The notes under the pieces were generated by a model. The model had not been told where the DNA came from and searched no databases. It worked only from the letters and a program-made list of their open reading frames with translations. From Candidatus Heimdallarchaeota archaeon (lineage in GTDB: Archaea; Asgardarchaeota; Heimdallarchaeia; Heimdallarchaeales; Heimdallarchaeaceae): a stretch of 41,762 nucleotides of DNA. Location of the stretch: contig JAAFKI010000199.1 in NCBI GenBank assembly GCA_021399345.1, positions 1-41,762 on the forward strand, in the 5' to 3' direction. Shown here piece after piece: positions 9,751 to 30,534 of the stretch (the stretch's first letter is position 1; each line of letters starts with the position of its first letter). A program made the translations under genes and the position numbers.

Positions 9751-9770
9751 TCTAATCACTCACAATTGCA

Positions 9771-10178: not shown

Positions 10179-10226
10179 ATCTCAAGAAACTGTAATTTAC
10201 TATTTTAGTATTCGTATAGATAATAA

Positions 10227-10292: not shown

Positions 10293-10386
10293 TTATTTTG
10301 AACCAATAATCTTGTTTTCTATCATCAGAGAGGGTTAGAGGGGATATTTAGCCAAAAGAAATATAAGTGCATCTAATTTTGGTTTA

Positions 10387-11415: not shown

Positions 11416-11433
11416 AAGATTTAACTTTGTTAA

Positions 11434-11456
11434 CTTTTTTTGTTTTTTCATTTTTT
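11434..11456 (+). terminator. Oligo-T tract, candidate archaeal terminator between convergent genes
   Basis: Three consecutive T-runs directly after the DJ-1 gene stop. Confidence 0.4.
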
Positions 11457-12041: not shown

Positions 12042-12146
12042 AATATAATTTTAACGTAAAGAAGAATAAAAGTGTTGCCTTTTTTCAACATTATATTATC
12101 TACATCAGCTTTTAATAGTAAAAAAAATTCAGTTATTCTGACCAGT

Positions 12147-13400: not shown

Positions 13401-13570
13401 TTAGGGATGGTGAATTAGCGGAACCTTTGATGAATGTCTCAATTGGAGGAAACATCTTTGAGATGTTAATGAATATTGAAGGAATGACTAAAGATCTAGA
13501 ATTATCAAACGGTTATATGCTAACACCAAAAATCAAAACAAGTGGTATAAACATCTCGACTCAAAAATAA
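13397..13570 (+). pseudogene. C-terminal fragment of a PmbA/TldE (TldD/PmbA family) protein, 57 aa
   Basis: Hand translation gives MIRDGELAEPLMNVSIGGNIFEMLMNIEGMTKDLELSNGYMLTPKIKTSGINISTQK*, matching the family's terminal I.dGe...P...isGn.felL.ni...tP pattern. Its ATG overlaps the nreA stop. Confidence 0.7.
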
Positions 13571-13637
13571 TTCTCTTCTTTTCCATTTTCTTTTTATATT
13601 TAAAAATAAGTGCTAGAATGTCAAATTTGCCCAGCTG

Positions 13638-14870: not shown

Positions 14871-14911
14871 AAGCCTTCTACGCTTTATTTCAGAAAAAAG
14901 ATTTTGAATAA

Positions 14912-14929
14912 GCAAAGATTTTATATAAA
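14912..14929 (+). promoter_or_regulatory. BRE/TATA promoter of biotin carboxylase (probably leaderless)
   Basis: Purine-rich gcaaaga followed by TTTTATATAAA (14919-14929), 21-31 nt upstream of ATG 14950. Confidence 0.55.
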
Positions 14930-14949
14930 TGTCAAGAGTTTATAGTTTC

Positions 14950-16452
14950 ATGCTTGGTACAGTGCTTATAGCCAATCGTGGAGAAATAGCTGTTCGAATA
15001 ATTCGAGCATGTCGTTTACTTAACCTCAAAAGCATAGTTATTTTTTCTAAAGAAGATTCTACTTCACTCCATGTAAAAATGGCTAATGAAGCATATAGTC
15101 TTGGCAAGGGTACAGTACAAGAAACTTATCTGAATGTAGAAAAAATAATTGAAATTGCTTTAGTTTCTGGTGCAGATGCAATCCATCCAGGTTACGGTTT
15201 TCTTAGTGAAAATCCAGATTTTGCTGAGAGGGTTGAGAAGGAAGGAATTGTATTTGTGGGACCATCTCCTACAATTCTAAGGAATTTGGGCGACAAAGTT
15301 GAATCAAAGAGAATAGCAAAGGAAATTGGTATTCCAACAATTCCTGGTTCTGATGGTTATGTATCGACACTATCTGAAGCAGAAAAAATTGCTGAAAATA
15401 TAGGATATCCAATTATCATAAAAGCAGCTTTCGGAGGAGGAGGACGAGGGATGGAGATAGTTGAAAATCCAGAAGCTCTTGAAATAAGTTTGTTAGGTTG
15501 TCAAACAATCGCTGATAAATTCTTTGGAAATAATAAAGTGTTTATTGAGAAATATATTTCCTCTCCTAGACATGTTGAAATACAATTTCTAGCTGATAAT
15601 CATCAGAACTCAATTCATATTGGAGATAGAGAATGTTCCATCCAACGTTCTTATCAAAAAATCATTGAAGAAGCTCCATCCTTTCTTTCTGTTCGCAGAA
15701 GAAATAGCTTGGGTGACAAGATTTGCAATCTTTCTGAAAAGATTGAATATAGGAATGCTGGAACTGCAGAATTTCTATGGAAAGATGATAATATTTTCTT
15801 TAATGAAATCAATCCAAGAATTCAAGTTGAACATCCTGTTACTGAGATGATCACAGGAATTGACTTAGTTGTAGAACAGCTTAAGATAGCAAGCAATGAG
15901 GAATTATCTATAAATCAAAGAGATATAAAGTTTAATGGGCATGCTATAGAATTTAGAATCAATGCAGAGGATCCTCTGAAATCATTTTATCCCCAATCAG
16001 GAAGAATTACTGGATTAAACGTCCCTGGAGGAAATGAAGTTCGTTTTGATACCTTTATTTATCCTGAGTATGTTTTTCCAAATAGTTATGATTCTTTAAT
16101 GGGTAAGCTAATTGTCAAAGGCAACAATCGAAATGATGCGATAACTAAATCAAGAATAGCTTTGAACGAACTCTCAATTTCCGGAGTTACAACAAATATC
16201 GCTCTTCATAACGCTATCATTGCATCACCTGAATTTCAGCAGAGAATTATAACAACTGATTTTCTAGAGAAAAATAAAATTACAAAAATCTTGTCACATT
16301 ATGAGAAACTGAAGCTTGCAGCAATATTAAAAACTCAAAGCATCAATAAATCAAAACAGCAATTGTCACCAATCAAATTAGATGAATCAGTTAATGGAAC
16401 TAACAGATGGAGAGAGCAAAGTAAACGTGAACGACAAAAAAATTATCTTTAA
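14950..16452 (+). CDS. accC: Biotin carboxylase subunit of an acyl-CoA carboxylase
   Basis: ANRGEIA, HPGYGFLSEN, GGGGRGM, RECSIQR and EINPRIQVEHPVTE. ORF-track start is 14929; 14950 is preferred from the TATA position. Confidence 0.95.
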   Translation: MLGTVLIANRGEIAVRIIRACRLLNLKSIVIFSKEDSTSLHVKMANEAYSLGKGTVQETYLNVEKIIEIALVSGADAIHPGYGFLSENPDFAERVEKEGIVFVGPSPTILRNLGDKVESKRIAKEIGIPTIPGSDGYVSTLSEAEKIAENIGYPIIIKAAFGGGGRGMEIVENPEALEISLLGCQTIADKFFGNNKVFIEKYISSPRHVEIQFLADNHQNSIHIGDRECSIQRSYQKIIEEAPSFLSVRRRNSLGDKICNLSEKIEYRNAGTAEFLWKDDNIFFNEINPRIQVEHPVTEMITGIDLVVEQLKIASNEELSINQRDIKFNGHAIEFRINAEDPLKSFYPQSGRITGLNVPGGNEVRFDTFIYPEYVFPNSYDSLMGKLIVKGNNRNDAITKSRIALNELSISGVTTNIALHNAIIASPEFQQRIITTDFLEKNKITKILSHYEKLKLAAILKTQSINKSKQQLSPIKLDESVNGTNRWREQSKRERQKNYL

Positions 16453-16467
16453 ACTGGAGTTTTTATT

Positions 16468-16953
16468 TTGAAAAAGCGAGTGACTTATCGAAATCACGAA
16501 TATATTTTTGAAATCCTCCCAAATGGGGATTTAAGTATAGATGGAGAAATTTTCTCCACATCGGTTGATCAAGAGATTAATTCTGTTTACAAAGTCACCG
16601 TGAATGATCACACATTTACAGTAGAAGTTTCTTCTAAAGATTTTACAATAGATGGTGAAAATGTTGATATCTCAATTAAACCATTCATTCCAAAACGAGT
16701 CATTAACAATGGTTCTCAGAAGAAGAAAAAAATTAACCTTAAAGCACCAATTCCAGGTAAAATAGCGCAAATACTAGTAAAGGAAGGAGATACTGTGGAT
16801 AAAAATCAAGAACTTATGATTTTAGAAGCAATGAAAATGCGAAATCGGATTTTCTCTCCAGATAAGGGAATAGTGAAAAAGATTTGTGTTGAGGAAAATA
16901 CCCTTGTTGAACAAGATCAGAAGCTTCTGGAGTTTGAGATTTCGCCTAATTAA
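16468..16953 (+). CDS. accB: Biotin carboxyl carrier protein
   Basis: APIPGKI and EAMKM biotinylation motif. GGAG SD precedes the TTG start. Confidence 0.93.
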   Translation: MKKRVTYRNHEYIFEILPNGDLSIDGEIFSTSVDQEINSVYKVTVNDHTFTVEVSSKDFTIDGENVDISIKPFIPKRVINNGSQKKKKINLKAPIPGKIAQILVKEGDTVDKNQELMILEAMKMRNRIFSPDKGIVKKICVEENTLVEQDQKLLEFEISPN

Positions 16954-17707
16954 CCAAACATTGCTTAAAGAAATCAATTACATAATTTTTCATTTTTTGG
17001 AAATGAACTTTGTCTGAAAAATTGTGATCAGCATTCTCAATAATTTGGAAATCTTTATCCAAATCTACTGGAAGTTTTTTGAACCACTTTTCAATTTCTT
17101 CTACATCTAAAATCTCGTCTTTTGTTCCAGTAATCATTCGTATAGGACAGTTAAGCTGTTCTACTAGTTTATCAGGATTATAATGTGAAGATTGTTTTTC
17201 GAAAAATGATTTCAAATTCACTTTAGGAAAACGCATTTGTTTATCTAATTTCCACATTAGAGACAATCCATCAAATATCTTTAACTTTGGTATTTTTTTG
17301 GTATCATAAACTGGAGATCTTATTGCTAAACATTGTATTCTGTTATCTCTAGCTGCATGACACAAAGCCATAGCACCTCCAAAACTTTCTCCGAGAAGAG
17401 CAATTTTTGTAGGAAGAATTTTTGGATGGTGAACTAGATAAGAAATTATTGTATTGATATTTTCTTGAGAATAATAATATTCAAACAGACCAGTACTATT
17501 TCTAACTCCTGTATAATCAAAGGCATAATAGGCTATTCCAATACAATTTAGTTCCTGAGCAAACCTTTCACCTTCTTTTTCAGGTTCAAGACCAGGCATT
17601 CCATTTAGATGTATAACTAAAGGTACAGGATATTTGCTTTCAGGTAGATAAAGAACTCCGTTGATAGTTTCATTTCGAAAATTTATATCCGTATATTCAA
17701 TTTTCAT
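16946..17707 (-). CDS. Ser alpha/beta hydrolase, candidate thioesterase of the megasynthase
   Basis: GESFG nucleophile, GTKD acid and ADHNF His. The start overlaps the megasynthase stop (ATGA coupling). Confidence 0.8.
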   Translation of the reverse strand: MKIEYTDINFRNETINGVLYLPESKYPVPLVIHLNGMPGLEPEKEGERFAQELNCIGIAYYAFDYTGVRNSTGLFEYYYSQENINTIISYLVHHPKILPTKIALLGESFGGAMALCHAARDNRIQCLAIRSPVYDTKKIPKLKIFDGLSLMWKLDKQMRFPKVNLKSFFEKQSSHYNPDKLVEQLNCPIRMITGTKDEILDVEEIEKWFKKLPVDLDKDFQIIENADHNFSDKVHFQKMKNYVIDFFKQCLVN

Positions 17708-20700
17708 TTTCCATCCTCTGTCTTAATCTCACAATAACTTAGAGCATAGTTTTGGAATTTCTTATTGGTTATTTCAAAGGAGCTTGACTCATATGGTAGG
17801 GATTCTGCAATCTTGGTTGAAAAGTCTACTTTGTAAGAAGATTTCTTCTCATCTGAAGATATCTCAATATCATGTAAACTGAGATTCAATCCTTCGCCTA
17901 TAGCTTTGGTAATGGCTTCTTTAATTGTCCAGTAAACAGTTCCTAACTCAGCATTTGAAGAAATTTGATTAAGTTCTTTTTCTGTAAAAGCTTCTTTGTA
18001 GAAAGATTCACTTCTTTCTTCAATCTTTTCGATATCAATACCTATAGGACCTTCTCCTATTGCAGCAATGGCGAAATCACCAGAGTGAGTTATTGAAAGA
18101 TTCAGCTTGCTCTTTTCTTTCTTCCTCTTATCGTAAATGTATGGTTGACCCTTGGTTGTTTTTCTTATTTCAGTTGTCTGAATAACCTTAGCGTCTTTAA
18201 TTACCTCTTTGATAAGTTTTTTAGCAGCAAGCACTCCAGAAAGATATTCAATCTTCCTTTTTTTGTTTTTCTTTCTTTCAAATGATGATCTTTCTTCTGA
18301 AGATAAATATCTCATCACTACCTTAGGTTTAGTATCTAGATAATTAGAAACAGCTGCAGTTGGGATGATTTTCATCATATTGTCTGAAAAAGAGGTTGAG
18401 ATTTGCCAGTATTCTTTCAGTGTCTCAAGTTGTTTTATTCTTTCAGGATTTTCAGTAAAAGAAAACTGTATATGAATCATCCCTAAACCTTCTATAAGGA
18501 CGATTAAACGACCCTTTTCATCAAACACTTCGACATCAAAATAGCTGTAATTTGTATCCTTATCAATGAATTTCGATACAATATGATGTGGTTGTTTATT
18601 GCTATGTATTGAAAGTTTTGCTATATTAGACGGTAACGAAGATTCGTTATTAACGATTATATCATATAACCCCGCAGTTTGTAGAGCTGCTTCTATGGTG
18701 AGAGGATTTATCAGCACTTTACTTTTACTTTCAAAGAACAAATCATCCTCAGGAATTTTAACAAGTGTAACTGCAGTTTCCTTTGAAACATCTAGTAATT
18801 TATCCAAAACTTGGAAACGTTTTCCATGGAAGAATACTTCATAAATTTCTTCTTTTGACATCAATTGTAATTCTGAATCTTCAGATTGGAAGCTTGATTT
18901 TCTTTTCCTTCCTTTCTTTACATTACTACCTATATCTAACTTGAAATGCTCAATTTCTCTTCTTAGTTTTTCATCGTTTTTCGGAATAAAGATAGATTTG
19001 AGAATCATCTCTTCTTTTGAAGAATCATATTCAACAAAGATGTTCTTAGGCACGTTTTTCGGAAGTTTTAATGCAGACGAAAACTCAATTTCTTTCAAGA
19101 TGAATGGTTTTGAGTTTGATACTAGATGGTATACTTCAGAAAACATTTCCAAACCCATCACACCTGGGAAGATTGGTACATCCTGTATTTGATGATCCAG
19201 CATGTATAGATCTGAATCTGTGGATAAAGTATGATATACTCTAAACTTTGAATCGATATACTCTAGACTATTTATCATAGGGTAATTTTTGTTCGAGATT
19301 TGCTGATCTAGAATATGCGCTTCTTCGAATGGTCCTAATCCATTTGATACAACAACTTCCTTTCCAATCTTGTTTAGAAATAGTTTTACAAATACTTCAG
19401 TTCCAGTTTCTAAAGGTATGGGATTTATTCCAAAAGAGCTTAGAATTTGCATTATTGAACCTCTTGTTGCCATCCCTACTCCGCCCCAAGCTGACCAATC
19501 ACATGCTATTGCTGGGATTCCTTGTTGATTGAGCATCCAACATAAACGAGATAGATAACCATTAGCAAAGGAATAATCTATTTGTCCTCTATTACCAAAT
19601 CTTCCTGCTATAGATGCGAAACAAACAACTCTCTTTAGCTTACTTTTATCTAGAGAATTTAGTATATTCCATATTCCTTCAACCTTAACTGATACTATCA
19701 ATCTAGAAAAATCGAATTTCTTCTTCTTGAAGGATTTAGATTCTTCCAACCCTGCTCCGTGAACAATGTGGGTTACTTTTGATTCCATTTGTTTTTCAAT
19801 TTCATCTAAAGCTCTTTTTACCTCCTTCTTTTTTGTCACATCAACTCTATGATATTGTGCTTCAATTTTCAACTTCTTGAGTCTCAGAAGATTTTTCGAA
19901 ACTTCCAAGCCAAAAATGAAATTATTCCATTTTCTATCAATCATGACAGGAGTAACTTTTTCTTCTGTAGCTTTTAGATTTTCAATCATTTTTTCTTTAT
20001 GTTCTTTTAATTCTTCTTCAGAAAGAGCTAAAAGTTCAGGAGTACAATAGGAAATATCCTCAATTCCCATAATTGCAACTTTGGGTTTGACGATAGTACA
20101 TAGAGCTTCAATGCATTTGAATGTGATTCCTCTTCCTCCACCAGTAACTAATAGCAAATCATCGTTCTTAAGATCCAATTTTGATGTTTTGGTAATAACT
20201 TCTGTAATATCAGAGGAAACGAGTGTATATCTTATACCCTTTTGATAAGATATTTCTGTAAAATTATCCCAATACTCTAATTCTTGTAGAATTTCTTTGT
20301 TATTTGATGAATATAAGTGTTTGACTTTCATTTCAAATTCTAATCCAAGAGTTTTAACAAATCCAGAAATTCCTCCAGATATAGGAACTGCATCTGACTC
20401 ATATCCAAAGAATTTCTCTGAAGAAATAGCTATGATTCTTTGGTTAGAATTTAATTCAAGTGATTGAAATAGCTTGAACATATTATTGTAAATCTCTTGG
20501 TCAACATAACCAGGTTTAGATTTTTCATCAGGCAGAATTATAACAAAGGAATCAAATTCCTTATCCTTCAAATCAGAAAGTGAATCATTGAAAATATTGT
20601 ATTCATGATATTGTAAATTCTTATTCGAGAATTCCTCTAAAATTGAGATTATTCTAGACGATTCAAGGTTAATTACTAGAGAGGATAGATTTGATAAATC

Positions 20701-23700: not shown

Positions 23701-26700
23701 TTTCACTATATCAATTGGAGCAAGTACAGCAGCCATCGCACCAGGCACAGTATTTCCTGCCCTACTCATTGCTCTACCGCGCTCTATCACTGCCCTTAAT
23801 CCATCTTCAAAAGATAATGAACCCGCGATCACTAATGCCACATATTCTCCTAGACTATGTCCAGAAACAATATCAGGTAGTATACCTTCTTCAGATAGAA
23901 GTCGTGCTATAGCTATATCTACAATGAATAAAGCTGGTTGAGTAAATTTAGTATCAGTTAATCTTTTCTTATTAGCTTCATTAGATAGTTTTTCCGAACC
24001 AAATATTATTTCCTTCAGACTATAGCTATAATAACTGTACCAGATTTTTTCTGCTTTCTCAAAAGTTTGAGCTACAATTGAAGAATTTTCATAAAGATGT
24101 TTAGCCATGCCTAAATATTGACTGCCTTGTCCAGTAAACATGAAACTTAATTTTGGTTTAATACTTTGAAGGGATATTTCATCTTTGGAAGTCAGAACAG
24201 ATGTTTCAGCAACAGGAAGAGGGCTTTCGTCAAATATATATTCTACTTTTTCAGGTGAGTATTCTTCCAATATTGTGTGAAAATTAGTTCCGCCAAAGCC
24301 GAAAGCAGATAAACCAGCTCTTCGAAGAATCCCTTTCTCTACATTCCAATCAATGGGTTCAGTATTTACTTTTAAATTTGATTTATCCCAATCAATTTTT
24401 GGGTTAAGTTTTTGAACATTTATTGAAGGTGGTAATATCTTATTATAGATGGTAAGTGTTGTTTTTATCAGAGACGCAATTCCAGCAGCAGCCTTTAGAT
24501 GACCTATTTGGCTTTTTATAGAACCTACTGCAAGTTTTTTTGTATTTTTACGGTCTTGAAAAACTTCTTTTAGAACATTTAATTCTACAGCGTCACCTAC
24601 AATAGTTGATGTACCATGAGCTTCAATGTAATCAACATCATCTATTGTTAAATCTGCTAAACGGAGAGCCATTGAAATAGCTTGTTTTTGTCCCTCTGGA
24701 TTTGGAGCGGTTATACTTTTCCCTTTACCATCTGAAGATGAACCAATAGCTGGGATGACAGCATATATTTTATTTTCATCTCTAATAGCATCCTCCAATC
24801 TTTTCAAGACCATAAATCCTGCACCTTCTCCCATAACAAAACCATCAGCACTTTCATCAAAGGGACAAGAACCTTTTGCAGAGAGAGCTCCAATCTTACT
24901 AAATTTCACATAAGAAGCAACATCCATAGATCTATCTGCACCACCTACCAAAGCTGTATCGAAATCACCAGATGTTAATGATTTAATAGCTGTATCTAAA
25001 GCAGCTATACTTGAAGCACAAGCTGCATCAGTAGTCATAGACTTACCTGTAAGATTAAACACATTAGCAATTCGACCGGATATAACATTAGACAATTCTC
25101 CAGGCATTGAATCTTCAGTAATTGAAGGATATTTTTCATCATAATTTTCTTTTAGATTTTGTAAGAGGGAATTCTGTTCTTCTTCACCAAGTGATTTGAA
25201 AACTGCATTATTTTCTAGCTCAAAAAGGAATTCAGGAACAAATAATCCTCTGTTAGTTGTTCTTTGATTTTCACCACCTAAAGCATTACCAATAATTACT
25301 GCAATTGGAAGTCTATTCTTTCCATCTGTAGAGATACCTGCATCATCTAAAGCTTGTTTTGCAGCGTCAAGAGACCATTTTTGAACTTCATCCATACTAT
25401 TTGCTATTTTAGGTGGAATTCGATAATTGATAGAATTAAATTTGTAATCTTTTACAAAAGCCCCTATTTTAGAATAGCTTTTATTTTGAGCTGTTTTATC
25501 TTCGTCAAAATGGATGTTTTTATCCCATCTTGAATCTGGAACCTCAGTAATTGAATATTTTTTGGAAGTTATATTAGCCCAGTATTCACTAATATTTGCA
25601 GAGTCTGGAAAAATACATCCTAAACCAATTATCGCGATTCTATTTTTTGATGATAATTCCGAAATTTGAATTTTTGGAACATCAATAACCACATCTCTTG
25701 TTAACATCCTTTCAATTGAATTTCTTGTATTTCTGAATAGTTCTTTTCCAGATACTACGATATCATAATGAAGATCTTTAATCTGAACAACATTACGCTT
25801 CAAACTGATAATTTCGCCTGCCATGAAACATCCTAAAGAAATATGGTCTTTTTCATCAACTAAATTAAATTGTGTTAAATCTCCTTCTGGTACATAATCC
25901 TCATTCCAAATCTCGGCTTTTGCAGCAATTCTGAGAGCTCCCAGATTATCTTTCTCATAGAGTTTCTTTCTTTCGCTGATAGGTAACCCTTCTTTAATCC
26001 AAATTCGTTCGTTTTCAATTGTTTGAGATACAAATTCAGAGGGTATAACGCGAGCACGTGTATTAACTGTAGAACCTATGACTTTAGTGATATTTGAATC
26101 AAGAAGTTTTTCTTGATATAATGAAGTGAGAGCTTTTGTTTTTACAATCTCATCAGTGAAAAGATAAGCTGTTCCCATCTGAATCCCAGGATTTATCAAA
26201 TCTAGGTGATTTCCAATCATTCCAGCTATCATAGCAGCTCCAAGTTCATCTCCAATACCACCAGCAAATACAACATTGGTTTTTTCAGATATCTGATTTG
26301 CATTTTTACTGAGATACTGTAAAATTGATTCCCAGAGAGTTAAAGATGTAAAAATGCCTATATGTCCCCCACATTCAGAGCCTTCTAAAATAACATGTTT
26401 GTGACCATATTTTATGGCTTCCTTGAATAAGCTTAAAGCTGGAGTATGAATGATAGTTTTCATCCCCATTTTTTGAATTCTAGTTGCTAGTTGAATAGAT
26501 CCTGCTGCAATTAGACAGATGGGAGTTTTGTTCTTAGCCATTAGAGAGATATGAGCTTCTCGTCTCTCTTTCATCACCTCTAAACCGATAATACCTCCTG
26601 CATAATTCTGGTTTTTGGGAAATTTCGAGTTGAATTCTGCGAATAGTTCTTCAGCTTCTTCTATCAAGAGTCCTCCCATAGCTAAAACTGGCAATGCCCC

Positions 26701-27777
26701 TTCTTCTGCTACTTTTATTGCAAAATCAGTCTTATCTGTAATATTGGCCATAGGACCTTGAATGATAGGAAATTTAATTTCTAGGCTTTTTGCAAATTCG
26801 CTTTCTTCTTCAAATGGCCAGTTAGCTGAAACTGTTTTGACTTGTTCTTGAATGATTTCTTGAATTGAAGTTAGAAATGATCTTAAATCATCGAAAATTT
26901 CTTTTATAAAGGGAGCAAAACTTAAACCTATATCACAAGGCAAGAATGAATGTTTCATTTCTTCTGAATCAAAGAAATGAGATTTACTTGAGAGTTGTTT
27001 CAAAAATTCTAGTAGTCCTTCTTCTCCTTTATCAGAGTTTTCTTTCTCAAATTTCTTTAATTCTCGAATAGAATTATTAGCAATTTTACCTATCAATCTG
27101 TATTTGTTAGAATAGCTTTCTCCTGCGATGTATGTATCGTTCTCATCAAGCTTTTCGAGGTATTCTTTGGTCAACAAACTAAGGGGACATTCAGGAAGAA
27201 GAAAAAGTTGTCCTTCTAGAACTACGCCTAGTGCTCCCCCTACTATAGCTGTAACTATGTTGTAGACACCAAAACCTCCTTGAATAATAAAAGGAAATCC
27301 AGCTTTATTGAATTCTTGAATCAAAATAAAAGATGTTTGATCACTTATTTTCCCTCCTGATTCAAACCCTTTTACTAAAAAGAAATCTACCCAGTCTGTT
27401 CTTTCTTGAGCCTCATCTAAATTTACAACTTCAGCAACTTTCCATTTAAGCTTTGAAACTAGTTTTACTAAATCATCTTGTCCTATTTCAAAAGCTATAA
27501 TTCCAATAGGTATTGAGTCTACTTCAGACAGAACCGATAAAGATTCTACATCAGGGAATCGAACTCCCCATAGTTTGTCAGAAGGAATCTTACTTGAACA
27601 AGTCTCAATTATTTCTTTCGAAACACTTTCTTCTAATCCTTCAAGATCGATTAAACCAATTCCACCTTTCAATGAAAGTTCAATCGCTAATTTAGGATTA
27701 CTTATTCCCTTTGGAGAATAACCCCATATTATTTCGTTTAATCTAAGTTCTTTTTCTAATTGTTTCTTAGTTTTCAT
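17704..27777 (-). CDS. Type I iterative PKS/FAS-like megasynthase: pseudoER-ER(FabK/PfaD-like)-KS-AT-KS-ACP-ACP-KR-DH-PPTase
   Basis: ER: PIIQGPMA, EGSECGGH, FAGGI, QMGTAYL. KS1: DAACASS (C920), EAHGTST, IGHLK. AT: GQGSQ, GHSLG (S1308), AFHS. KS2: NAACAST (C1824), SHETYT, TGHAM. ACPs: LGIDTVK, LGIDTIK. KR: TGGGRGI, GQIDYSFAN. DH: LDHQIQDVPIFP (H2862). PPTase: SITHS, GIDIE, WTIKEA. An AGGTG SD lies upstream. Confidence 0.93.
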   Translation of the reverse strand: MKTKKQLEKELRLNEIIWGYSPKGISNPKLAIELSLKGGIGLIDLEGLEESVSKEIIETCSSKIPSDKLWGVRFPDVESLSVLSEVDSIPIGIIAFEIGQDDLVKLVSKLKWKVAEVVNLDEAQERTDWVDFFLVKGFESGGKISDQTSFILIQEFNKAGFPFIIQGGFGVYNIVTAIVGGALGVVLEGQLFLLPECPLSLLTKEYLEKLDENDTYIAGESYSNKYRLIGKIANNSIRELKKFEKENSDKGEEGLLEFLKQLSSKSHFFDSEEMKHSFLPCDIGLSFAPFIKEIFDDLRSFLTSIQEIIQEQVKTVSANWPFEEESEFAKSLEIKFPIIQGPMANITDKTDFAIKVAEEGALPVLAMGGLLIEEAEELFAEFNSKFPKNQNYAGGIIGLEVMKERREAHISLMAKNKTPICLIAAGSIQLATRIQKMGMKTIIHTPALSLFKEAIKYGHKHVILEGSECGGHIGIFTSLTLWESILQYLSKNANQISEKTNVVFAGGIGDELGAAMIAGMIGNHLDLINPGIQMGTAYLFTDEIVKTKALTSLYQEKLLDSNITKVIGSTVNTRARVIPSEFVSQTIENERIWIKEGLPISERKKLYEKDNLGALRIAAKAEIWNEDYVPEGDLTQFNLVDEKDHISLGCFMAGEIISLKRNVVQIKDLHYDIVVSGKELFRNTRNSIERMLTRDVVIDVPKIQISELSSKNRIAIIGLGCIFPDSANISEYWANITSKKYSITEVPDSRWDKNIHFDEDKTAQNKSYSKIGAFVKDYKFNSINYRIPPKIANSMDEVQKWSLDAAKQALDDAGISTDGKNRLPIAVIIGNALGGENQRTTNRGLFVPEFLFELENNAVFKSLGEEEQNSLLQNLKENYDEKYPSITEDSMPGELSNVISGRIANVFNLTGKSMTTDAACASSIAALDTAIKSLTSGDFDTALVGGADRSMDVASYVKFSKIGALSAKGSCPFDESADGFVMGEGAGFMVLKRLEDAIRDENKIYAVIPAIGSSSDGKGKSITAPNPEGQKQAISMALRLADLTIDDVDYIEAHGTSTIVGDAVELNVLKEVFQDRKNTKKLAVGSIKSQIGHLKAAAGIASLIKTTLTIYNKILPPSINVQKLNPKIDWDKSNLKVNTEPIDWNVEKGILRRAGLSAFGFGGTNFHTILEEYSPEKVEYIFDESPLPVAETSVLTSKDEISLQSIKPKLSFMFTGQGSQYLGMAKHLYENSSIVAQTFEKAEKIWYSYYSYSLKEIIFGSEKLSNEANKKRLTDTKFTQPALFIVDIAIARLLSEEGILPDIVSGHSLGEYVALVIAGSLSFEDGLRAVIERGRAMSRAGNTVPGAMAAVLAPIDIVKEIVDEVKKTYLTIANYNSKSQTVVSGDIESVEEVLEISKKRGVKAIRLNVSTAFHSQIVKNVEEEMEKVLSKIEFKRPSIPVYSNVTSLPYPNDPSLMRNLLVEQISSSVRWVDEVENMYKAGARYFVEVGPKKALFSFAKDILKDKADINVFNTLSAKDDDINKIKDTVNKIIQAGYENGGIDFSTLDQSFEHSIVQKEIPVFASKKSDFESFIQRNPSLLENFLKTGHEIYTTYLGKSEAPTETRSVSSLSEELIGITGVGIGLPGKSQNVFDDENIDLILSGHNFIDTVEDEIKQQILDKNINRLVKSADGSASFEEINDLTQVISLAGQIGKFDPINDFGLNEKFLQSLDITFTLAICAGLEALTDAGIPLVKSSITTTTGKILEGEWALPEELQEETGIVFASAFPGYDNLIKEISEYQESGEKRGFSRNFLFKILSLGHAQFAQMIKAKGPNTQINAACASTTQAIGIAEDWIKTGRCNRVIVIAADDAAGENLLPWIGSGFLVAGGVTTEGEIEKAALPFGKNRHGLIIGSAAAGLIIEKESAYEKRGVKPIVDLIGSQFTNSAFHGSRLDVKNITQVFENFINKVEKNYNISRKEIAENGIFVSHETYTPARGGSAEAEIEALKSVFGTDVSKLIIVNTKGYTGHAMGAGVEECVAIKSMERGIIPPIANYSQIDPAFNGLSFSKGENKRAKYAIRLAAGFGSQIAFTAFRLNTHEDRYDLIYHENWLNQLNGSLDSTFLDGRVLKMRTKPRKIDSTGEKLGRKPVLHSVGSSNILSELTNIISEITGYESNLIEADMHLEEDLGIDTVKQAEVFGIVRDKWDLELDETLSLAEFTSPNKIVSYILEKLPQDHKEESSKKTAVSQSIDDSSLIVRIREIVSETTGYEPDLIEYDMDLEEDLGIDTIKQAEIFGEIREIYDIPLDETVSLAEFRSIQDIANYVSKHAVIDSTISKDVKSGSEIKKSIQMERDVRIDKIIVSPASLNKEKAEKLDLSNLSSLVINLESSRIISILEEFSNKNLQYHEYNIFNDSLSDLKDKEFDSFVIILPDEKSKPGYVDQEIYNNMFKLFQSLELNSNQRIIAISSEKFFGYESDAVPISGGISGFVKTLGLEFEMKVKHLYSSNNKEILQELEYWDNFTEISYQKGIRYTLVSSDITEVITKTSKLDLKNDDLLLVTGGGRGITFKCIEALCTIVKPKVAIMGIEDISYCTPELLALSEEELKEHKEKMIENLKATEEKVTPVMIDRKWNNFIFGLEVSKNLLRLKKLKIEAQYHRVDVTKKKEVKRALDEIEKQMESKVTHIVHGAGLEESKSFKKKKFDFSRLIVSVKVEGIWNILNSLDKSKLKRVVCFASIAGRFGNRGQIDYSFANGYLSRLCWMLNQQGIPAIACDWSAWGGVGMATRGSIMQILSSFGINPIPLETGTEVFVKLFLNKIGKEVVVSNGLGPFEEAHILDQQISNKNYPMINSLEYIDSKFRVYHTLSTDSDLYMLDHQIQDVPIFPGVMGLEMFSEVYHLVSNSKPFILKEIEFSSALKLPKNVPKNIFVEYDSSKEEMILKSIFIPKNDEKLRREIEHFKLDIGSNVKKGRKRKSSFQSEDSELQLMSKEEIYEVFFHGKRFQVLDKLLDVSKETAVTLVKIPEDDLFFESKSKVLINPLTIEAALQTAGLYDIIVNNESSLPSNIAKLSIHSNKQPHHIVSKFIDKDTNYSYFDVEVFDEKGRLIVLIEGLGMIHIQFSFTENPERIKQLETLKEYWQISTSFSDNMMKIIPTAAVSNYLDTKPKVVMRYLSSEERSSFERKKNKKRKIEYLSGVLAAKKLIKEVIKDAKVIQTTEIRKTTKGQPYIYDKRKKEKSKLNLSITHSGDFAIAAIGEGPIGIDIEKIEERSESFYKEAFTEKELNQISSNAELGTVYWTIKEAITKAIGEGLNLSLHDIEISSDEKKSSYKVDFSTKIAESLPYESSSFEITNKKFQNYALSYCEIKTEDGK

Positions 27778-27787
27778 CTATAACACC

Positions 27788-29365
27788 TTAAACAGGAGAA
27801 ATTCCATGTTTTCTTTTGGGAGACTGTTCTCTCTTATTTTGAAGTAAATGTAAAGAAGCAACAATTTCACTTCTAGTTTCTTCGGGAAAAATTACTTTGT
27901 CAATATAACCTAATTCTGCTGCTTGGTAAGGGTTTGCAAATTCTTCTTTGAATTTGTGAGTGAATTCCTCTAGAACTTTCTCAGGTTCCTCTTCTTCTTT
28001 CAATCTGTTTCTATAGAGAATTCGAACTGCCCCTTCTGCTCCCATAACAGCTATCTGAGCTGAAGGCCAAGCTAGATTAATATCTGTTCCTAGGTGCTTG
28101 GAACTCATCACTATGTAAGCGCCTCCATATGCTTTTCGTACAATAATAGAAATCTTTGGAATGGTTGCCTCTGAATAAGCGTAGAGTAGTTTTGCACCAT
28201 GTCTGATTATCCCTTCATGTTCTTGTTTGACACCTGGTAGAAAACCAGGAACATCAACAAATGTCAATATTGGGATGTTGAAAGAATCACAAAAGCGAAT
28301 GAATCTAGAAGCTTTATCTGCAGCATTATAATCAATTGCTCCTCCCAAGAAAAGAGGTTGATTTGCAATAATTCCTACAGCAAATCCTTGCATTCTAGCG
28401 AAGCTTACTATGATGTTTTTAGCCCAATCTTCATTCAATTCTAAAAAACTATCAGAATCAACAATTGTTCCTATGATGCTTTTCATATCATAAGGTTCAT
28501 TCTCTTCATCTGGTATTAATTCGCGAAGCGAGATCTGTTCACTTACGTCTCTTACTTCTGGGTCAAATGGAGGATCATTCAAATTGTTTGAAGGTAGAAA
28601 AGAAAGTAGTTTTTTAGCTAAGTCCAAAGTTTCTTCTTCACTTTCACCAACTAAATGACTTACACCTGTTTTCTTGCTATGAACACCACTTCCTCCTAAA
28701 TCGTAAAAGGATATTTCCTCCCCTGTAACAGCTTTTACAACTTCTGGACCAGTAACAAACATAAATGAATTTTCTTTATTCATTAAAACAAAATCTGTTA
28801 AAGCAGGCGAGTAAACCGCTCCTCCTGCACATGGTCCAAGAATAATAGAAATCTGAGGGATCACTCCAGATGCTTGAATATTTCTGAAGAAAATATCTCC
28901 ATAACCAGCTAATGATGCAACTCCTTCTTGAATTCTTGCTCCACCTGAATCCAATATTCCAATAATTGGATTTCCAGTTTTAATTGCAAGCTCCATTAAT
29001 TTGCAAATTTTTGTTGCTTGAGCTCTCCCTAGACTTCCTCCAAAAACTGTGAAATCTTGACTGTAAATGAAAACTTGTCTCTCAGCAATAGTGGCATGAC
29101 CTGTTACTACTCCATCCCCTAATGGCTTGTTGTTTTTAAGATTAAACTTTGTAGATTGATGTGTAACAAAAGAATCCATTTCGACAAAAGAGTTCTCATC
29201 AACAAGTAATTCAATTCTTTCTCTTGCTGTAAGTTTGCCTTTTTCATGCTGATTCTTAACCCTCTTTTCTCCCCCTCCTTCCAAACTTTTTTTTCTCTTA
29301 TCATGGAGTTTAGAATAGATCTTTTTTTCTCTATCACTAGCACTATTCTTATGATTCTGATACAT
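27788..29365 (-). CDS. pccB: Acyl-CoA carboxylase carboxyltransferase subunit (PccB-type)
   Basis: GKLTARERI, QDFTVFGGSLG, DSGGARIQEG, GPCAGGAVYSPA, DVPGFLPG and RKAYGGAY. It ends 10 bp before the megasynthase start. Confidence 0.93.
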   Translation of the reverse strand: MYQNHKNSASDREKKIYSKLHDKRKKSLEGGGEKRVKNQHEKGKLTARERIELLVDENSFVEMDSFVTHQSTKFNLKNNKPLGDGVVTGHATIAERQVFIYSQDFTVFGGSLGRAQATKICKLMELAIKTGNPIIGILDSGGARIQEGVASLAGYGDIFFRNIQASGVIPQISIILGPCAGGAVYSPALTDFVLMNKENSFMFVTGPEVVKAVTGEEISFYDLGGSGVHSKKTGVSHLVGESEEETLDLAKKLLSFLPSNNLNDPPFDPEVRDVSEQISLRELIPDEENEPYDMKSIIGTIVDSDSFLELNEDWAKNIIVSFARMQGFAVGIIANQPLFLGGAIDYNAADKASRFIRFCDSFNIPILTFVDVPGFLPGVKQEHEGIIRHGAKLLYAYSEATIPKISIIVRKAYGGAYIVMSSKHLGTDINLAWPSAQIAVMGAEGAVRILYRNRLKEEEEPEKVLEEFTHKFKEEFANPYQAAELGYIDKVIFPEETRSEIVASLHLLQNKREQSPKRKHGISPV

Positions 29366-29481
29366 TAGTATTGCTTATATACAGTTGAATAAAAACTCAT
29401 CTTCTTTCATGACAAAATAATGAAAGAAACTTTATAACATACCAATTCTGATGCGGTCTTGTGACATACAGAATAGGTTAT

Positions 29482-30210
29482 ATGAACACTGTTCATTATG
29501 AAAAGGTATCTTCAACAATGGATGTAATAATTGAGCACCTTCAGAATGATATAGATCACCCAATTCTAGTTGTGGCTAAACAGCAAATAGAGGGGAGGGG
29601 AAGGCAGGATTCAGACTGGTTTTCACCAGAGGGAGGTTTCTATGGTACTTTTGCATTCCCACTATCATCCAAATTGCAACCAAAACAGTATAGCTTCTTG
29701 CACTATGCTGCAGCTCTAGCTATTCAACAAACTATTAAGAAAAAATATGGACCTGAAATCTTAGTAAAATGGCCAAACGACATAGTTTTTCAAACTAGAA
29801 AATTAGGTGGAATTTTACTTGAGTTAGTATCTTTACACTCAGAATATTTGCTATTGGGAATAGGAATTAATATTGAGTTAAAAGAAGAAAATACTCTAGC
29901 TTTTGAACGGTTAAGAGCTACTAGTTTAGAAGAAGTTACTGGAATTCAAATTCAGAAAAATGAATTCACTAACATCCTCTCAGAATTTATATTTGAATAT
30001 GTTAATTTAATAATGGAAGAGAATCACGAGAAAATAATTTCTTTGTTTAAAATGAACTCACTCAACATGAATAAAAAACACTCGTACAAATCTGAAGTGT
30101 ATTTATGCAGAGGAATTTCTAATACTGGGGAGCTAATACTTGAATCACCTGACAAAATGCGAGTAGATGTTCATATAAATGAATCAAATAACTTGATAAT
30201 CATAAACTAG
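29482..30210 (+). CDS. birA: Biotin--protein ligase
   Basis: SSTMD, GRGRQ, KWPND, KLGGIL and GIGIN; no N-terminal HTH. The ORF-track start is GTG 29461. Confidence 0.92.
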   Translation: MNTVHYEKVSSTMDVIIEHLQNDIDHPILVVAKQQIEGRGRQDSDWFSPEGGFYGTFAFPLSSKLQPKQYSFLHYAAALAIQQTIKKKYGPEILVKWPNDIVFQTRKLGGILLELVSLHSEYLLLGIGINIELKEENTLAFERLRATSLEEVTGIQIQKNEFTNILSEFIFEYVNLIMEENHEKIISLFKMNSLNMNKKHSYKSEVYLCRGISNTGELILESPDKMRVDVHINESNNLIIIN

Positions 30211-30447: not shown

Positions 30448-30534
30448 CATTCACCTCTCACCTCTCACTTTTTGCATCTACTCTTTTTAAAATGGTAAGT
30501 AAACTTTAAAATGTGTAAATTTTTACATTAATTG

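What the first reader, a model, noticed from the sequence alone, without database searches (positions are those of the whole stretch)
14950..30210. Complete ACP-dependent fatty-acid/polyketide system in an apparent Asgard archaeon
Seen in sequence: accC-accB on +; pccB-megasynthase-hydrolase on - with a 10-bp gap and an ATGA overlap; birA divergent. One locus therefore encodes biotin loading, extender supply, self-priming (PPTase), condensation, a full reductive cycle (KR/DH/ER) and probable release. Established: archaeal membranes are isoprenoid ethers, and archaea generally lack ACP-based FAS/type I PKS. Inference: this lineage may make acyl chains de novo, which bears on the archaeal-to-eukaryotic lipid transition. 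The genes carry archaeal TATA and GGTG signals, look as AT-rich as their neighbours by eye, and have no adjacent mobility genes, so the cluster appears long resident.
Basis: partly seen in the sequence, partly recalled or inferred. Interest (0 to 1): 0.95.

Follow-up and report, generated by a model that had tools for sequence, protein, structure and literature searches.

The report
Heimdall archaeal fatty-acid megasynthase cluster
A Heimdall-group Asgard archaeon carries a native, long-conserved gene cluster for one giant self-activating fatty-acid-type synthase with its own malonyl-CoA supply, in lineages where I could not find a key archaeal membrane-lipid enzyme, so whether these relatives of eukaryotes make bacterial-style lipids becomes directly testable.

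Summary
accC-BCCP (+), carboxyltransferase-megasynthase-hydrolase (-) and birA (+) are all there, with the 10-nt gap and the ATGA overlap. The 3,357-aa protein reads ER'-ER-KS-AT-KS2-ACP-ACP-KR-DH-PPTase. All catalytic residues checked are invariant across the family, and dN/dS is about 0.15.

The cluster is native. Its composition matches the genome. The same gene order recurs in independent Heimdall assemblies down to about 50% identity. It is present in 24 of 28 genomes of the family.

It belongs to the uncharacterised two-ketosynthase family whose core matches "Type R" (Shulse & Allen 2011). The Asgard form adds a fused ER pair and a fused PPTase, and all such forms make one clade.

Unexpected findings:
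- Every carrier domain has Thr where the phosphopantetheine Ser should be. This is a family-wide signature.
- Heimdall families with the synthase lack a detectable GGGPS and always have PlsY.
- Hodarchaeales show the reverse pattern.
- PlsY abuts the cluster in two closed genomes.

The product is unknown. This scan reported the same family earlier in other Heimdall and Marine Group II genomes. A 2020 paper mentions a Heimdall PKS only in passing.

The parts
14929..16452 (+). accC, biotin carboxylase subunit of an acyl-CoA carboxylase
   Evidence: CPSase_L_D2 225 bits, Biotin_carb_N 150 and Biotin_carb_C 118. NF006367 scores 598 bits against a cut-off of 597. Syntenic in relatives.
16468..16953 (+). 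Biotin carboxyl carrier protein (BCCP), TTG start
   Evidence: Biotin_lipoyl 66 bits. The EAMKM biotinylation motif is read in the translation.
16946..17707 (-). Alpha/beta hydrolase, the probable chain-release enzyme; its start overlaps the megasynthase stop (ATGA)
   Evidence: Hydrolase_4 and Peptidase_S9 hits. GESFG...D...H triad, with S108, D197 and H228 invariant in 40 homologs. AF2 pLDDT 95.6. Nearest folds are a lipase (TM 0.83), esterases, and the polyketide-pathway hydrolase GrgF and thioesterase DcsB. Named homologs are all Asgard-labelled, and at least 11 homologs match a megasynthase homolog in longest-contig length.
17704..27777 (-). 3357-aa iterative type I synthase: ER'-ER-KS1-AT-KS2-ACP-ACP-KR-DH-PPTase
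   Evidence: dN/dS 0.15.
26818..27777 (-). aa 1-320: degenerate FabK/NMO-like domain (ER')
   Evidence: TIGR03151 FabK 35.8 bits over aa 25-250. Present in all Asgard-type homologs. dN/dS 0.15-0.31.
25924..26799 (-). aa 327-618: FabK-type (FMN, TIM-barrel) enoyl reductase
   Evidence: PF03060 NMO 76.7 bits. TIGR03151 75-101 bits.
24415..25644 (-). aa 712-1121: ketosynthase 1 (Cys920, His1054, His1093)
   Evidence: ketoacyl-synt 256 bits and Ketoacyl-synt_C 156 bits. Both His are invariant in 106 family members. Cys920 is read in the window; its column was not tallied across the family.
23233..24144 (-). aa 1212-1515: acyltransferase, malonyl type (GQGSQ, GHSLG, AFHS)
   Evidence: Acyl_transf_1 175 bits. 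FabD TIGR00128 241 bits. Q1217, S1308 and H1414 are invariant.
21556..22932 (-). aa 1616-2074: second, complete ketosynthase (Cys1824, His1972, His2012), annotated 'CLF' in Type R clusters
   Evidence: PF00109 48.6 bits. FabF 144 bits. The triad is invariant in 106 of 106.
21142..21345 (-). ACP1 (aa 2144-2212) with Thr2175 at the phosphopantetheine site
   Evidence: PP-binding 22.4 bits. LGIDT motif.
20851..21054 (-). ACP2 (aa 2241-2309) with Thr2272 at the phosphopantetheine site
   Evidence: PP-binding 38-45 bits. The Thr aligns to the Ser of the DS motif in AcpM and PigH.
19483..19893 (-). aa 2629-2765: ketoreductase (Ser2722, Tyr2735)
   Evidence: PF08659 97 bits. The PfaA model matches this region at 172 bits. 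Residues are invariant.
18478..19248 (-). aa 2844-3100: PKS-type dehydratase (His2862, Pro2871)
   Evidence: PKS_DH_N 35 bits and PS-DH 31 bits. Residues are invariant.
17731..18321 (-). aa 3153-3349: Sfp-type 4'-phosphopantetheinyl transferase, the only PPTase found in the genome
   Evidence: ACPS 63 bits and AASDHPPT_N 30 bits. The PF01648 search of the own genome finds only this copy. D3248, K3286 and E3287 are invariant and E3250 is nearly so.
27788..29365 (-). Carboxyltransferase (PccB/AccD/MmdA type, fused alpha-beta), 10 nt upstream of the megasynthase
   Evidence: Carboxyl_trans 621 bits. TIGR01117 751 bits, below its cut-off of 999. 64-96% identical and syntenic in relatives.
29461..30210 (+). 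birA, biotin-protein ligase without a repressor domain, divergent from the synthase operon
   Evidence: TIGR00121 125 bits against a cut-off of 83. Syntenic in all full loci.

Best explanation
This is a native, vertically inherited and functional lipid-synthesis cluster of Heimdallarchaeia.

Proposed mechanism (steps inferred from domain identity):
1. BirA biotinylates the BCCP. AccC plus the carboxyltransferase then make malonyl-CoA.
2. The C-terminal PPTase of the megasynthase primes its own two carrier domains.
3. The AT loads malonyl units and the two ketosynthases condense them.
4. KR, DH and the FabK-type ER reduce each beta-keto group fully, so the enzyme iteratively builds a saturated, or mostly saturated, fatty-acyl chain.
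5. The translationally coupled alpha/beta hydrolase takes the chain off.
6. The most likely fate is esterification to glycerol phosphate by the PlsY acyltransferases that always accompany the cluster.

Shown here: the domain set, conserved catalytic residues, purifying selection, native composition, synteny, phylogenetic coherence, co-occurrence with PlsY, and physical adjacency to PlsY in two genomes.

Inferred: enzymatic activity, chain length, priming on Thr, the release chemistry and the destination of the product.
For: All catalytic residues tallied are invariant in the 62-106 family members aligned, including a full Cys-His-His triad in KS2. dN/dS is 0.15 overall and 0.07-0.31 for every domain.

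The cluster is native. GC is 0.336 against 0.335 for the genome, the tetranucleotide distance lies at the 65th-84th percentile of genome chunks, and codon usage is typical.

Independent assemblies reproduce both borders with the flanking archaeal genes (Nre, AlkZ-like, purple acid phosphatase). Synteny holds down to about 50% identity, including two closed genomes.

The synthase was found in f1 24/28, f2 1/1, f3 10/11, f4 2/3 and f6 11/11. All ER-fused proteins form one clade (SH-aLRT 98), apart from the bacterial clade.

The only PPTase in the genome is the fused one. No FabA/FabZ and no other KS were found, so there is no type II system to compete with it.

Different lineages attach different enoyl-reduction solutions: a fused FabK pair here and an acyl-CoA dehydrogenase gene in the Solirubrobacteraceae locus. 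That suggests full reduction matters to the product.

PlsY is in every genome of f1-f4 and f6. One copy passes the PlsY equivalog cut-off and lies near a DegV/FakB gene. A PlsY gene abuts the cluster in G109 and G065.
Against: No biochemical data exist for any member of the family; Type R products are uncharacterised.

Both carriers have Thr where all characterised carriers I know of have Ser, so priming is unproven.

The DH is PKS-type with a Glu in the usual Asp position (read by eye, not tested).

The route from the synthase to PlsY is incomplete. No PlsX, no PlsC and no FakA-sized Dak2 protein were found in this 88.6%-complete MAG, so the route to acyl-phosphate and the second acylation step are unexplained.

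G1PDH and two CarS-like genes are present, so an isoprenoid-lipid pathway with an unrecognised GGGPS is not excluded.

The hydrolase fold does not separate thioesterase from esterase or acyltransferase.
Confidence: 0.6

Rival explanations
1. The synthase works as described, but it makes a specialised 'secondary' lipid or polyketide, for example a very-long-chain, hydroxy or polyene lipid, or a signalling or protective compound. Bulk membrane lipids remain archaeal isoprenoid ethers made with an unrecognised GGGPS.
For: The family was defined as 'secondary lipid synthases'. The nearest curated model is PfaA, and the PfaA-like single-KS proteins are the sister clade. G1PDH and two CarS-like genes persist in this genome and G1PDH persists across f1-f4. 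The one cultured Lokiarchaeon showed archaeal lipids, as cited, while some Loki-labelled genomes carry the synthase.
Against: Conservation is near-universal across five Heimdall families. The cluster has its own dedicated ACC and BirA. A complete reductive set is present, and no FabA-type isomerase was found for cis double bonds. Distribution is complementary to GGGPS with two different queries, closed genomes included. PlsY is adjacent in two genomes.
Confidence: 0.25
2. The carrier domains are not conventional. Either Thr cannot be phosphopantetheinylated, so the protein works without a swinging arm (for example on CoA thioesters), or it is inactive.
For: Thr replaces the attachment Ser in both ACPs and in nearly all two-KS proteins examined. 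I found no report of Thr-linked phosphopantetheine in the held library.
Against: The carrier domains and the PPTase are under purifying selection (dN/dS 0.09-0.25). The PPTase catalytic residues are conserved. The rest of the carrier motif is canonical. Ser and Thr interchange at this exact position within the family: P0290 is all Ser and nested among Thr types, and P0355 is mixed. Tandem carrier repeats are maintained in 2 to 6 copies.
Confidence: 0.07
3. The carboxylase genes serve central metabolism, such as propionyl-CoA handling or a carbon-fixation cycle, and their position next to the synthase is incidental.
For: The carboxyltransferase matches best a methylmalonyl-CoA decarboxylase/propionyl-CoA carboxylase-type model (TIGR01117, 751 bits, below its cut-off). 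Substrate specificity was not determined.
Against: A 10-nt gap with a GGTG joins the carboxyltransferase to the synthase. The whole five-gene arrangement around the synthase is kept from 96% down to about 50% identity. Unrelated bacterial members of the family also sit by ACC genes: Koribacter and Solirubrobacteraceae. The AT has malonyl-type motifs.
Confidence: 0.05
4. It is an artefact: a bacterial contig binned into an archaeal MAG, a chimeric assembly, or a very recent bacterial insertion.
For: The genome is a MAG (88.6% complete, 2.8% contamination). Bacterial homologs exist at 41-50% identity. I could not lay reads.
Against: Archaeal and Asgard marker genes lie on both sides on the same contig. 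The same borders appear in independent assemblies and in closed chromosomes. Composition and codon usage are native. Identity falls with kinship. All Asgard-type proteins form a clade apart from the bacterial ones.
Confidence: 0.02

Closest known systems
'Type R' secondary lipid synthase cluster (Shulse & Allen 2011, PLoS One 6:e20146, PMC3098273; Koribacter, Solibacter, Elusimicrobium, Roseiflexus)
   Same: It is a single pfaA-like gene with the order KS-MAT-second KS ('CLF')-tandem ACPs-KR, accompanied by a PPTase. In Koribacter an ACC gene is present too. The product is uncharacterised. The same core order is seen here and in about 100 homologs.
   Different: Here the PPTase is fused to the C-terminus, two FabK-like domains are fused to the N-terminus, and a PKS-type DH follows the KR. 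A dedicated hydrolase, a full ACC and BirA are clustered with it, and the host is an archaeon. The 'CLF' has a complete Cys-His-His triad. I could not place the named Type R reference sequences in my trees, so membership rests on architecture, not phylogeny.
PfaA subunit of bacterial PUFA synthases (TIGR02813) and Schizochytrium OrfA
   Same: PfaA is the best-scoring curated model (844 bits). It shares the KS-MAT...tandem ACP-KR-DH layout and the ACP motif LGID(S/T)(I/V)K. PfaA-like single-KS proteins are the sister clade.
   Different: The score is below the model cut-off of 1010. A second KS lies between the AT and the ACPs. Thr replaces Ser in the carriers. No PfaB or PfaC partners and no FabA-type dehydratase/isomerase were found in the genome. 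The ER is FabK-like and only faintly PfaD-like (24.6 bits).
Enediyne polyketide synthase PKSE (KS-AT-ACP-KR-DH-PPTase)
   Same: It is an iterative type I synthase with a C-terminal fused PPTase and a discrete release enzyme encoded alongside (from my knowledge of the family).
   Different: PKSE has one KS, one ACP and no ER, and it uses a hot-dog thioesterase. Here there are two KS domains, two ACPs and an ER pair, and the neighbour is an alpha/beta hydrolase. No phylogenetic test against PKSE was possible.
Two-KS megasynthase operon of Marine Group II and other archaea
   Same: It has the same KS-AT-KS2-ACPn-KR-DH(-PPT) core and the same Thr carriers. The PPT-only type is the nearest clade to the Asgard type.
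   Different: According to those notes, that type has no fused ER and uses a separate FabI gene. The clustered ACC, BirA and hydrolase are also not reported for it.
ACP-independent archaeal fatty acid synthesis (ketothiolase/DUF35 complex; bioRxiv 10.1101/2024.07.05.601840)
   Same: It addresses the same question, de novo fatty acids in archaea, and notes many KT/DUF35 pairs in Asgard genomes.
   Different: That system is thiolase-based, works on CoA esters and has no carrier protein. [quoted passage not shown]

Membership tests
Type R secondary lipid synthase (Shulse & Allen 2011) | One pfaA homolog with the order KS-MAT-CLF(second KS)-ACP(n)-KR | tested here: met
   The domain order is established. 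It differs in having 2 ACPs (3-6 in the paper) and a complete catalytic triad in the 'CLF'.
Type R secondary lipid synthase (Shulse & Allen 2011) | A PPTase encoded immediately downstream | tested here: met
   The PPTase is present but fused to the C-terminus (aa 3153-3349). Homologs with the PPTase fused or absent both occur in the family.
Type R secondary lipid synthase (Shulse & Allen 2011) | KS groups phylogenetically with the named Type R references (Koribacter, Solibacter, Roseiflexus, Elusimicrobium) | not tested
   No named reference sequence was available to me. I only showed one well-supported two-KS clade that includes bacterial proteins from Actinomycetota and Anaerolineae.
PUFA synthase PfaA (TIGR02813) | Score at or above the curated cut-off of 1010 bits | tested here: not met
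   844.5 bits in 4 stretches.
PUFA synthase PfaA (TIGR02813) | Partner genes with FabA-type dehydratase/isomerase domains (PfaC) and PfaD | tested here: not met
   PF07977 was not found in the genome (88.6% complete). Nothing of the kind lies in the window. The PfaD model scores only 24.6 bits on the ER.
Phosphopantetheine-dependent carrier domain (PF00550) | Conserved Ser in the (D/H)S(L/I) motif as the attachment site | tested here: not met
   Thr2175 and Thr2272 align to the Ser of AcpM and PigH. The same holds in all 106 family proteins first examined.
Phosphopantetheine-dependent carrier domain (PF00550) | Match to the family profile above its cut-off, with a cognate PPTase | tested here: met
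   The two ACPs score 38-45 and 22.4 bits against a cut-off of 20.8. A PPTase is fused in the same protein.
Enediyne PKSE | KS-AT-ACP-KR-DH-PPTase with a single KS, no ER, and a hot-dog thioesterase neighbour | tested here: not met
   There is a second KS and an ER pair, and the neighbour is an alpha/beta hydrolase. Phylogeny against PKSE was not done.
Type I FAS (animal; fungal/CMN) | Characteristic domain order: animal KS-MAT-DH-ER(MDR)-KR-ACP-TE; fungal/CMN AT-ER-DH-MPT-ACP-KR-KS-PPT | tested here: not met
   The order here is ER'-ER-KS-AT-KS-ACP-ACP-KR-DH-PPT. Only the FMN-type ER and the terminal PPTase recall fungal FAS. The reference orders are from my own knowledge.
Biotin-dependent acyl-CoA carboxylase with ligase | BC, a BCCP with MKM lysine, a carboxyltransferase and a BirA that passes its model cut-off | tested here: met
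   accC scores 598 against 597, birA 125 against 83, the carboxyltransferase 621 bits on PF01039, and the BCCP carries EAMKM. Acetyl- versus propionyl-CoA preference was not tested.

The most novel reading that the evidence does not exclude
Non-Hodarchaeal Heimdallarchaeia have swapped the hydrophobic half of their membrane lipids. Having lost GGGPS, they build membranes from fatty acyl chains made by this megasynthase and esterified by PlsY. In the window's order that would be onto glycerol-1-phosphate, since G1PDH is retained, giving ester lipids on the archaeal backbone. In family f6 it would be onto another backbone, since G1PDH was not found there either. The synthase would also carry its intermediates on phosphopantetheine attached to threonine, a linkage I have not seen described for any carrier protein.
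Probability: 0.25. Interest if true: 0.95.

Novelty: new variant of a known kind. Interest (0 to 1): 0.82.

Why it matters
Eukaryotes descend from Asgard archaea yet have bacterial-type fatty-acid ester lipids. How and when that switch happened is a long-standing open question.

Work in the held library noted PlsY and PlsC homologs in Asgard genomes, but with no source of acyl chains. A 2025 paper still predicts archaeol-based bilayers for Heimdallarchaeia.

This cluster supplies the missing acyl-chain source. It comes with a concrete, testable gene set: the synthase, a hydrolase, ACC, BirA and PlsY. It also comes with a lineage pattern in which the synthase and GGGPS exclude each other.

The result cuts the other way too. 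Hodarchaeales, the proposed sister of eukaryotes, keep GGGPS and lacked the synthase in those searched. Any link to eukaryogenesis therefore needs loss, transfer or a different placement of eukaryotes.

Separately, a carrier-protein family hundreds of cluster representatives strong, with Thr at the attachment site, would extend basic FAS/PKS enzymology if the Thr is really modified.

Tried and rejected
- **Read-level continuity and expression.** The look-up of sequencing runs listed 20 runs from 12 studies that hold part of the gene (marine sediment, seawater, cold seep), including one metatranscriptome with 0.15 of the words. I therefore have no read-level evidence for continuity, habitat or expression.
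- **Named reference sequences for trees.** I could not obtain named PfaA, PKSE, FAS or Type R sequences. The first homolog search was swamped by multimodular PKSs whose scores add up over modules. I used unnamed single-KS PfaA-like proteins and modular PKSs as outgroups instead.
- **Stand-alone ACP.** The 80-aa ORF on contig C125 scores below the ACP model cut-off and has no clean DSL motif. I do not count it.
- **FakA.** Only short Dak2 open frames (213-228 aa) were found, a size I read as the DhaL subunit and not the longer FakA. The 509-aa gene between PlsY and DegV has no family hit. The fatty-acid-kinase route to acyl-phosphate is therefore suggested only by the DegV neighbour.
- **GpsA.** Only weak N-terminal NAD-binding hits of 20-37 bits were found. 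No G3P dehydrogenase is established.
- **Promoter and Shine-Dalgarno claims.** I read them but did not test them statistically.
- **Complex prediction.** Not used. KS-KS or ACP-PPTase pairs would pass by likeness to solved structures and would not change my odds.
- **Literature searches with no relevant result.** Searches for 'Asgard + PUFA synthase' and for Thr in place of Ser in carriers found nothing. A search on Heimdallarchaeia plus fatty-acid-biosynthesis and ketosynthase terms returned no paper that mentions Heimdallarchaeia.

Full report
**1. The observation**

The window is one whole 41,762-base contig (C147) of a 3.27-Mb MAG in 199 contigs, 88.6% complete and 2.8% contaminated. The junctions read as described:
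- TAA-ggtgttatag-ATG lies between the carboxyltransferase and the megasynthase.
- An ATGA overlap joins the megasynthase stop to the hydrolase start.

Family assignments are strong:
- accC scores 598 bits, just over the cut-off of 597.
- The BCCP carries the EAMKM biotinylation motif.
- The carboxyltransferase is a 525-aa fused type (PF01039, 621 bits).
- birA scores 125 bits against a cut-off of 83.
- The hydrolase is a 253-aa alpha/beta hydrolase with a GESFG...D...H triad.

**2. Anatomy of the megasynthase**

Pfam and NCBIfam scans of the whole protein and of its pieces give this order:

| Residues | Domain |
|---|---|
| aa 1-320 | degenerate FabK-like domain (ER') |
| aa 327-618 | FabK-type ER |
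| aa 712-1121 | KS1 |
| aa 1212-1515 | malonyl-type AT (GQGSQ, GHSLG, AFHS; FabD model 241 bits) |
| aa 1616-2074 | second KS (KS2) |
| aa 2144-2212 | ACP1 |
| aa 2241-2309 | ACP2 |
| aa 2629-2765 | KR |
| aa 2844-3100 | PKS-type DH |
| aa 3153-3349 | Sfp-type PPTase |

In alignments of 62-106 homologs the following residues never vary: the KS1 histidines, the KS2 Cys-His-His triad, the AT Ser, His and Gln, the KR Ser and Tyr, the DH His and Pro, and the PPTase Asp, Lys and Glu. The PPTase Glu3250 varies in one sequence. KS1 Cys920 is read in the window, but its column was not tallied across the family. The second KS is thus a complete ketosynthase, not a Cys-less chain-length factor.

Against two orthologs (96% and 92% identical), dN/dS is 0.15 overall and 0.07-0.31 in every domain.

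**3. Is it really archaeal, and is it resident?**

- **Neighbours.** On the same contig are an Arf-family GTPase, archaeal Nre, methylene-H4MPT dehydrogenase and AFOR.
- **Names.** Related loci in the named collection are Candidatus Heimdallarchaeota MAGs. AB_125 is in the same genus, and close homologs are labelled Heimdallarchaeaceae.
- **Composition.** GC is 0.336 against 0.335 for the genome. The tetranucleotide distance is at the 65th-84th percentile of ordinary 10-kb genome chunks. Codon usage of the cluster genes is typical.
- **Borders.** Three independent assemblies (L011, L013, L016) between them reproduce both borders with the same flanking genes: purple acid phosphatase on one side, AlkZ-like and Nre on the other.
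- **Synteny.** The order birA | carboxyltransferase-megasynthase-hydrolase | BCCP-accC holds at about 50-59% identity in other genera, and in two closed chromosomes.
- **Kinship.** Identity falls with kinship, from 96% to 45%.

A chimeric contig, a bacterial bin or a recent insertion is therefore very unlikely.

**4. Distribution**

Among 301 Asgard genomes sampled:

| Group | Genomes with the synthase |
|---|---|
| f1 (window's family) | 24 of 28 |
| f2 | 1 of 1 |
| f3 | 10 of 11 |
| f4 | 2 of 3 |
| f6 (another family of the class) | 11 of 11 |
| f5 | 0 of 21 |
| f7 | 0 of 2 |
| f14 (another class) | 5 of 68 |
| f27 (another class) | 3 of 7 |
| f11 | 0 of 76 |
| f17 | 0 of 19 |

Family f5 is Hodarchaeales. 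Its GGGPS loci carry the record titles Ca. Hodarchaeota, Ca. Hodarchaeum mangrovi and B3_Heim.

**5. What family is it?**

The best curated model is PfaA, at 844 bits and below its cut-off of 1010.

Searching with the unusual second-KS region retrieves a large set of 2,900-3,800-aa proteins with the same core order. They fall into three types:
- **Asgard type:** fused ER pair and fused PPTase.
- **PPT-only type:** some are labelled Methanobacteriota.
- **Core-only bacterial type:** Actinomycetota and Anaerolineae.

A deeper-branching pair with a fused PPTase and a faint ER'-like N-terminus includes a Thermoplasmatota-labelled protein.

This core matches the 'Type R' cluster of Shulse & Allen 2011. 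That cluster is KS-MAT-CLF-ACP(3-6)-KR plus a PPTase gene, has an ACC gene in Koribacter, and has an unknown product. I verified the description in the paper, but I could not put the named reference sequences in a tree.

The trees give the following (FastTree on 114 rows; IQ-TREE on 59 rows):
- Single-KS PfaA-like proteins are sister (100) to the two-KS family (99).
- All ER-fused Asgard proteins form one clade (98).
- That clade sits inside a 100-supported clade with the PPT-only type.
- Both are separate from the bacterial core-only clade (100).

The sample is the top hits of two searches, labels are those of the depositors, and the direction of the ancient transfer between domains is not resolved.

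The closest bacterial locus I fetched is from a Solirubrobacteraceae MAG. It has the core synthase beside an acyl-CoA dehydrogenase gene and a multidomain ACC. Different hosts thus attach different enoyl-reduction and malonyl-supply solutions to the same core.

**6. The threonine carriers**

Both ACPs read LGIDT(V/I)KQAE. The Thr aligns with the phosphopantetheine-bearing Ser of solved carriers AcpM and PigH. All 106 family proteins first examined have Thr in their carrier motifs, whether archaeal or bacterial.

An exhaustive search of 1.84 billion cluster representatives with the ACP didomain found 426 proteins at E <= 1e-30. In the top 150, two-KS proteins carry Thr and single-KS PfaA-like proteins carry Ser. 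There are two informative exceptions:
- P0290 is a two-KS protein with five Ser carriers. It is nested among Thr types in the tree.
- P0355 is an Asgard-type fragment with both Ser and Thr carriers in one array.

The position is therefore evolutionarily interchangeable and under selection. That argues the Thr is a working attachment site, served by the co-inherited PPTase. This is inference. I found no report of Thr-linked phosphopantetheine in the held library. Earlier notes of this scan reported the same Thr in Marine Group II versions.

**7. The release enzyme**

Close homologs of the hydrolase that carry a name are all Asgard-labelled. At least 11 homologs match a megasynthase homolog in longest-contig length. 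The AlphaFold model is confident (pLDDT 95.6).

Its nearest solved folds are a lipase with a monoacylglycerol intermediate (TM 0.83), feruloyl esterases and monoglyceride lipases. Further down are two hydrolases linked to polyketide pathways, the thioesterase DcsB and GrgF. This fits an acyl (thio)ester hydrolase or transferase. It does not tell which.

**8. Lipid context in this genome**

| Gene or function | Result |
|---|---|
| PPTase | only the fused copy |
| Other KS | none found |
| FabA/FabZ | none found |
| PlsX | none found |
| PlsC | none found |
| PlsY | three homologs |
| G1PDH | present, 455 bits against a cut-off of 413 |
| CarS-like | two genes |
| GGGPS | not found |

The PlsY copy on contig C88 passes the PlsY equivalog cut-off (171 bits against 137). 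It lies two genes from a DegV/FakB-type fatty-acid-binding protein.

**9. Lipid context across the class**

| Families | Synthase | GGGPS (Pfam model) | GGGPS (Hodarchaeal query) | PlsY | G1PDH |
|---|---|---|---|---|---|
| f5 (Hodarchaeales) | 0 of 21 | 19 of 22 | 19 of 22 | 11 of 22, weak | 22 of 22 |
| f7 | 0 of 2 | 2 of 2 | 2 of 2 | 2 of 2, weak | 2 of 2 |
| f1-f4 (window's order) | present | one strong hit (G021) and a few weak ones in 46 genomes | only three weak hits (21-32 bits) | every genome | 44 of 46 |
| f6 | 11 of 11 | 0 of 12 | 0 of 12 | every genome, 4-13 copies | 0 of 12 |

The genomes without GGGPS include two closed chromosomes, G065 and G109.

In those same two closed genomes, which belong to a sister genus, a PlsY gene lies directly next to birA at the edge of the cluster. 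It is 60% identical to this genome's C125 copy.

These are few independent evolutionary events, the genomes are kin, and most are incomplete. This is a pattern to be tested, not a statistic.

Bacterial PlsY accepts both G1P and G3P, and a FakA/B-PlsY route from free fatty acid is established (PMC13400652). PlsY and PlsC homologs in Asgard genomes were already known. I found no paper in the held library that links them to a synthase or to a missing GGGPS.

**10. Most likely mechanism, and what remains open**

The cluster most likely makes malonyl-CoA and primes its own carriers. It then iteratively builds a fully reduced acyl chain with two ketosynthases, which may form a KS/KS pair or divide the chain-length range (inference). 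The hydrolase hands the chain off.

The best-supported destination is glycerol-phosphate esters via PlsY. Support comes from co-occurrence, adjacency in two genomes, and the absence of GGGPS. Three gaps keep that step at moderate confidence:
- The route to acyl-phosphate is unidentified.
- The second acylation step is unidentified.
- G1PDH and CarS-like genes are retained.

The main rival is a specialised secondary lipid made alongside ordinary archaeal lipids.

**11. Prior knowledge and novelty**

Chen et al. [quoted passage not shown] Database records name these proteins generically. Eme et al. 2023 does not mention lipids, fatty acids or polyketides in its main text. [quoted passage not shown]

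This scan has already reported the same family in other Heimdall genomes and in Marine Group II. My results agree, with one difference: G1PDH is present in this lineage and absent only from f6.

I class it as a new variant of a known but uncharacterised kind. It is of high interest for the lipid-divide question and for carrier-protein chemistry.

Noticed in passing
window 20851-21054 and 21142-21345 (-); proteins P0290, P0355: The two-KS synthase family has Thr instead of Ser at the phosphopantetheine site, always followed by (V/I)KQ. P0290 is all Ser and P0355 mixes Ser and Thr carriers in one array. Single-KS PfaA-like relatives are all Ser.
   Followed up: yes
G000 contig C88, locus L031 2315-5704: A PlsY that passes its equivalog cut-off is followed by a 509-aa gene with no family hit and then a DegV/FakB-type fatty-acid-binding protein. 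An alpha/beta hydrolase lies just upstream. This may be a free-fatty-acid-to-PlsY module whose kinase is unrecognised.
   Followed up: partly
L054 (G109:C1:561000-580999) 3168-3893 and L055 (G065) 3276-4001: In two closed genomes of a sister genus, a PlsY gene sits directly beside birA at the edge of the synthase cluster.
   Followed up: yes
L055 (G065:C1) 6499-19036: The megasynthase of this closed genome matches query residues 1-1486 and then 799-2334 in succession. That points to an internal tandem duplication of the KS-AT region, or an assembly artefact. The genome search also showed it as two open frames of 1510 and 2729 aa.
   Followed up: no
Class-wide genome searches: Family f6 has the synthase and 4-13 PlsY paralogs per genome, but neither GGGPS nor G1PDH was found. 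Hodarchaeales (f5) have GGGPS and two G1PDH-like genes and no synthase.
   Followed up: partly
window 6334-6885 (-): An Arf-family small GTPase (PF00025, 143 bits), a eukaryote-signature protein typical of Asgard archaea, lies 8 kb from the cluster.
   Followed up: no
window 30532-32079 (+): A purple acid phosphatase with a CARDB domain lies next to birA. It is conserved in that position in same-genus loci and duplicated in L016.
   Followed up: no
L020 (Solirubrobacteraceae MAG) 8348-22720: A bacterial two-KS synthase (2750 aa) is flanked by an acyl-CoA dehydrogenase gene and by ORFs with BC, BCCP, ACC_central and carboxyltransferase domains, which resembles a eukaryote-like multidomain ACC.
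   Followed up: no
L017 1729-2334 (-): A weak DegV-like match (52 bits, 24% identity) lies about 3 kb upstream of the cluster in another genus of the family.
   Followed up: no
G000 contig C125, locus L029 17334-17576 (+): An 80-aa ACP-like ORF lies next to an F420-dependent LLM oxidoreductase. It scores 46 bits (below the ACP cut-off of 70) and has no clean DSL motif.
   Followed up: partly
proteins P0173, P0187: Two full Asgard-type synthases are labelled Zixibacteria and Bathyarchaeia by their depositors, but they nest inside the Heimdall-type clade. These are probably binning or labelling errors.
   Followed up: no
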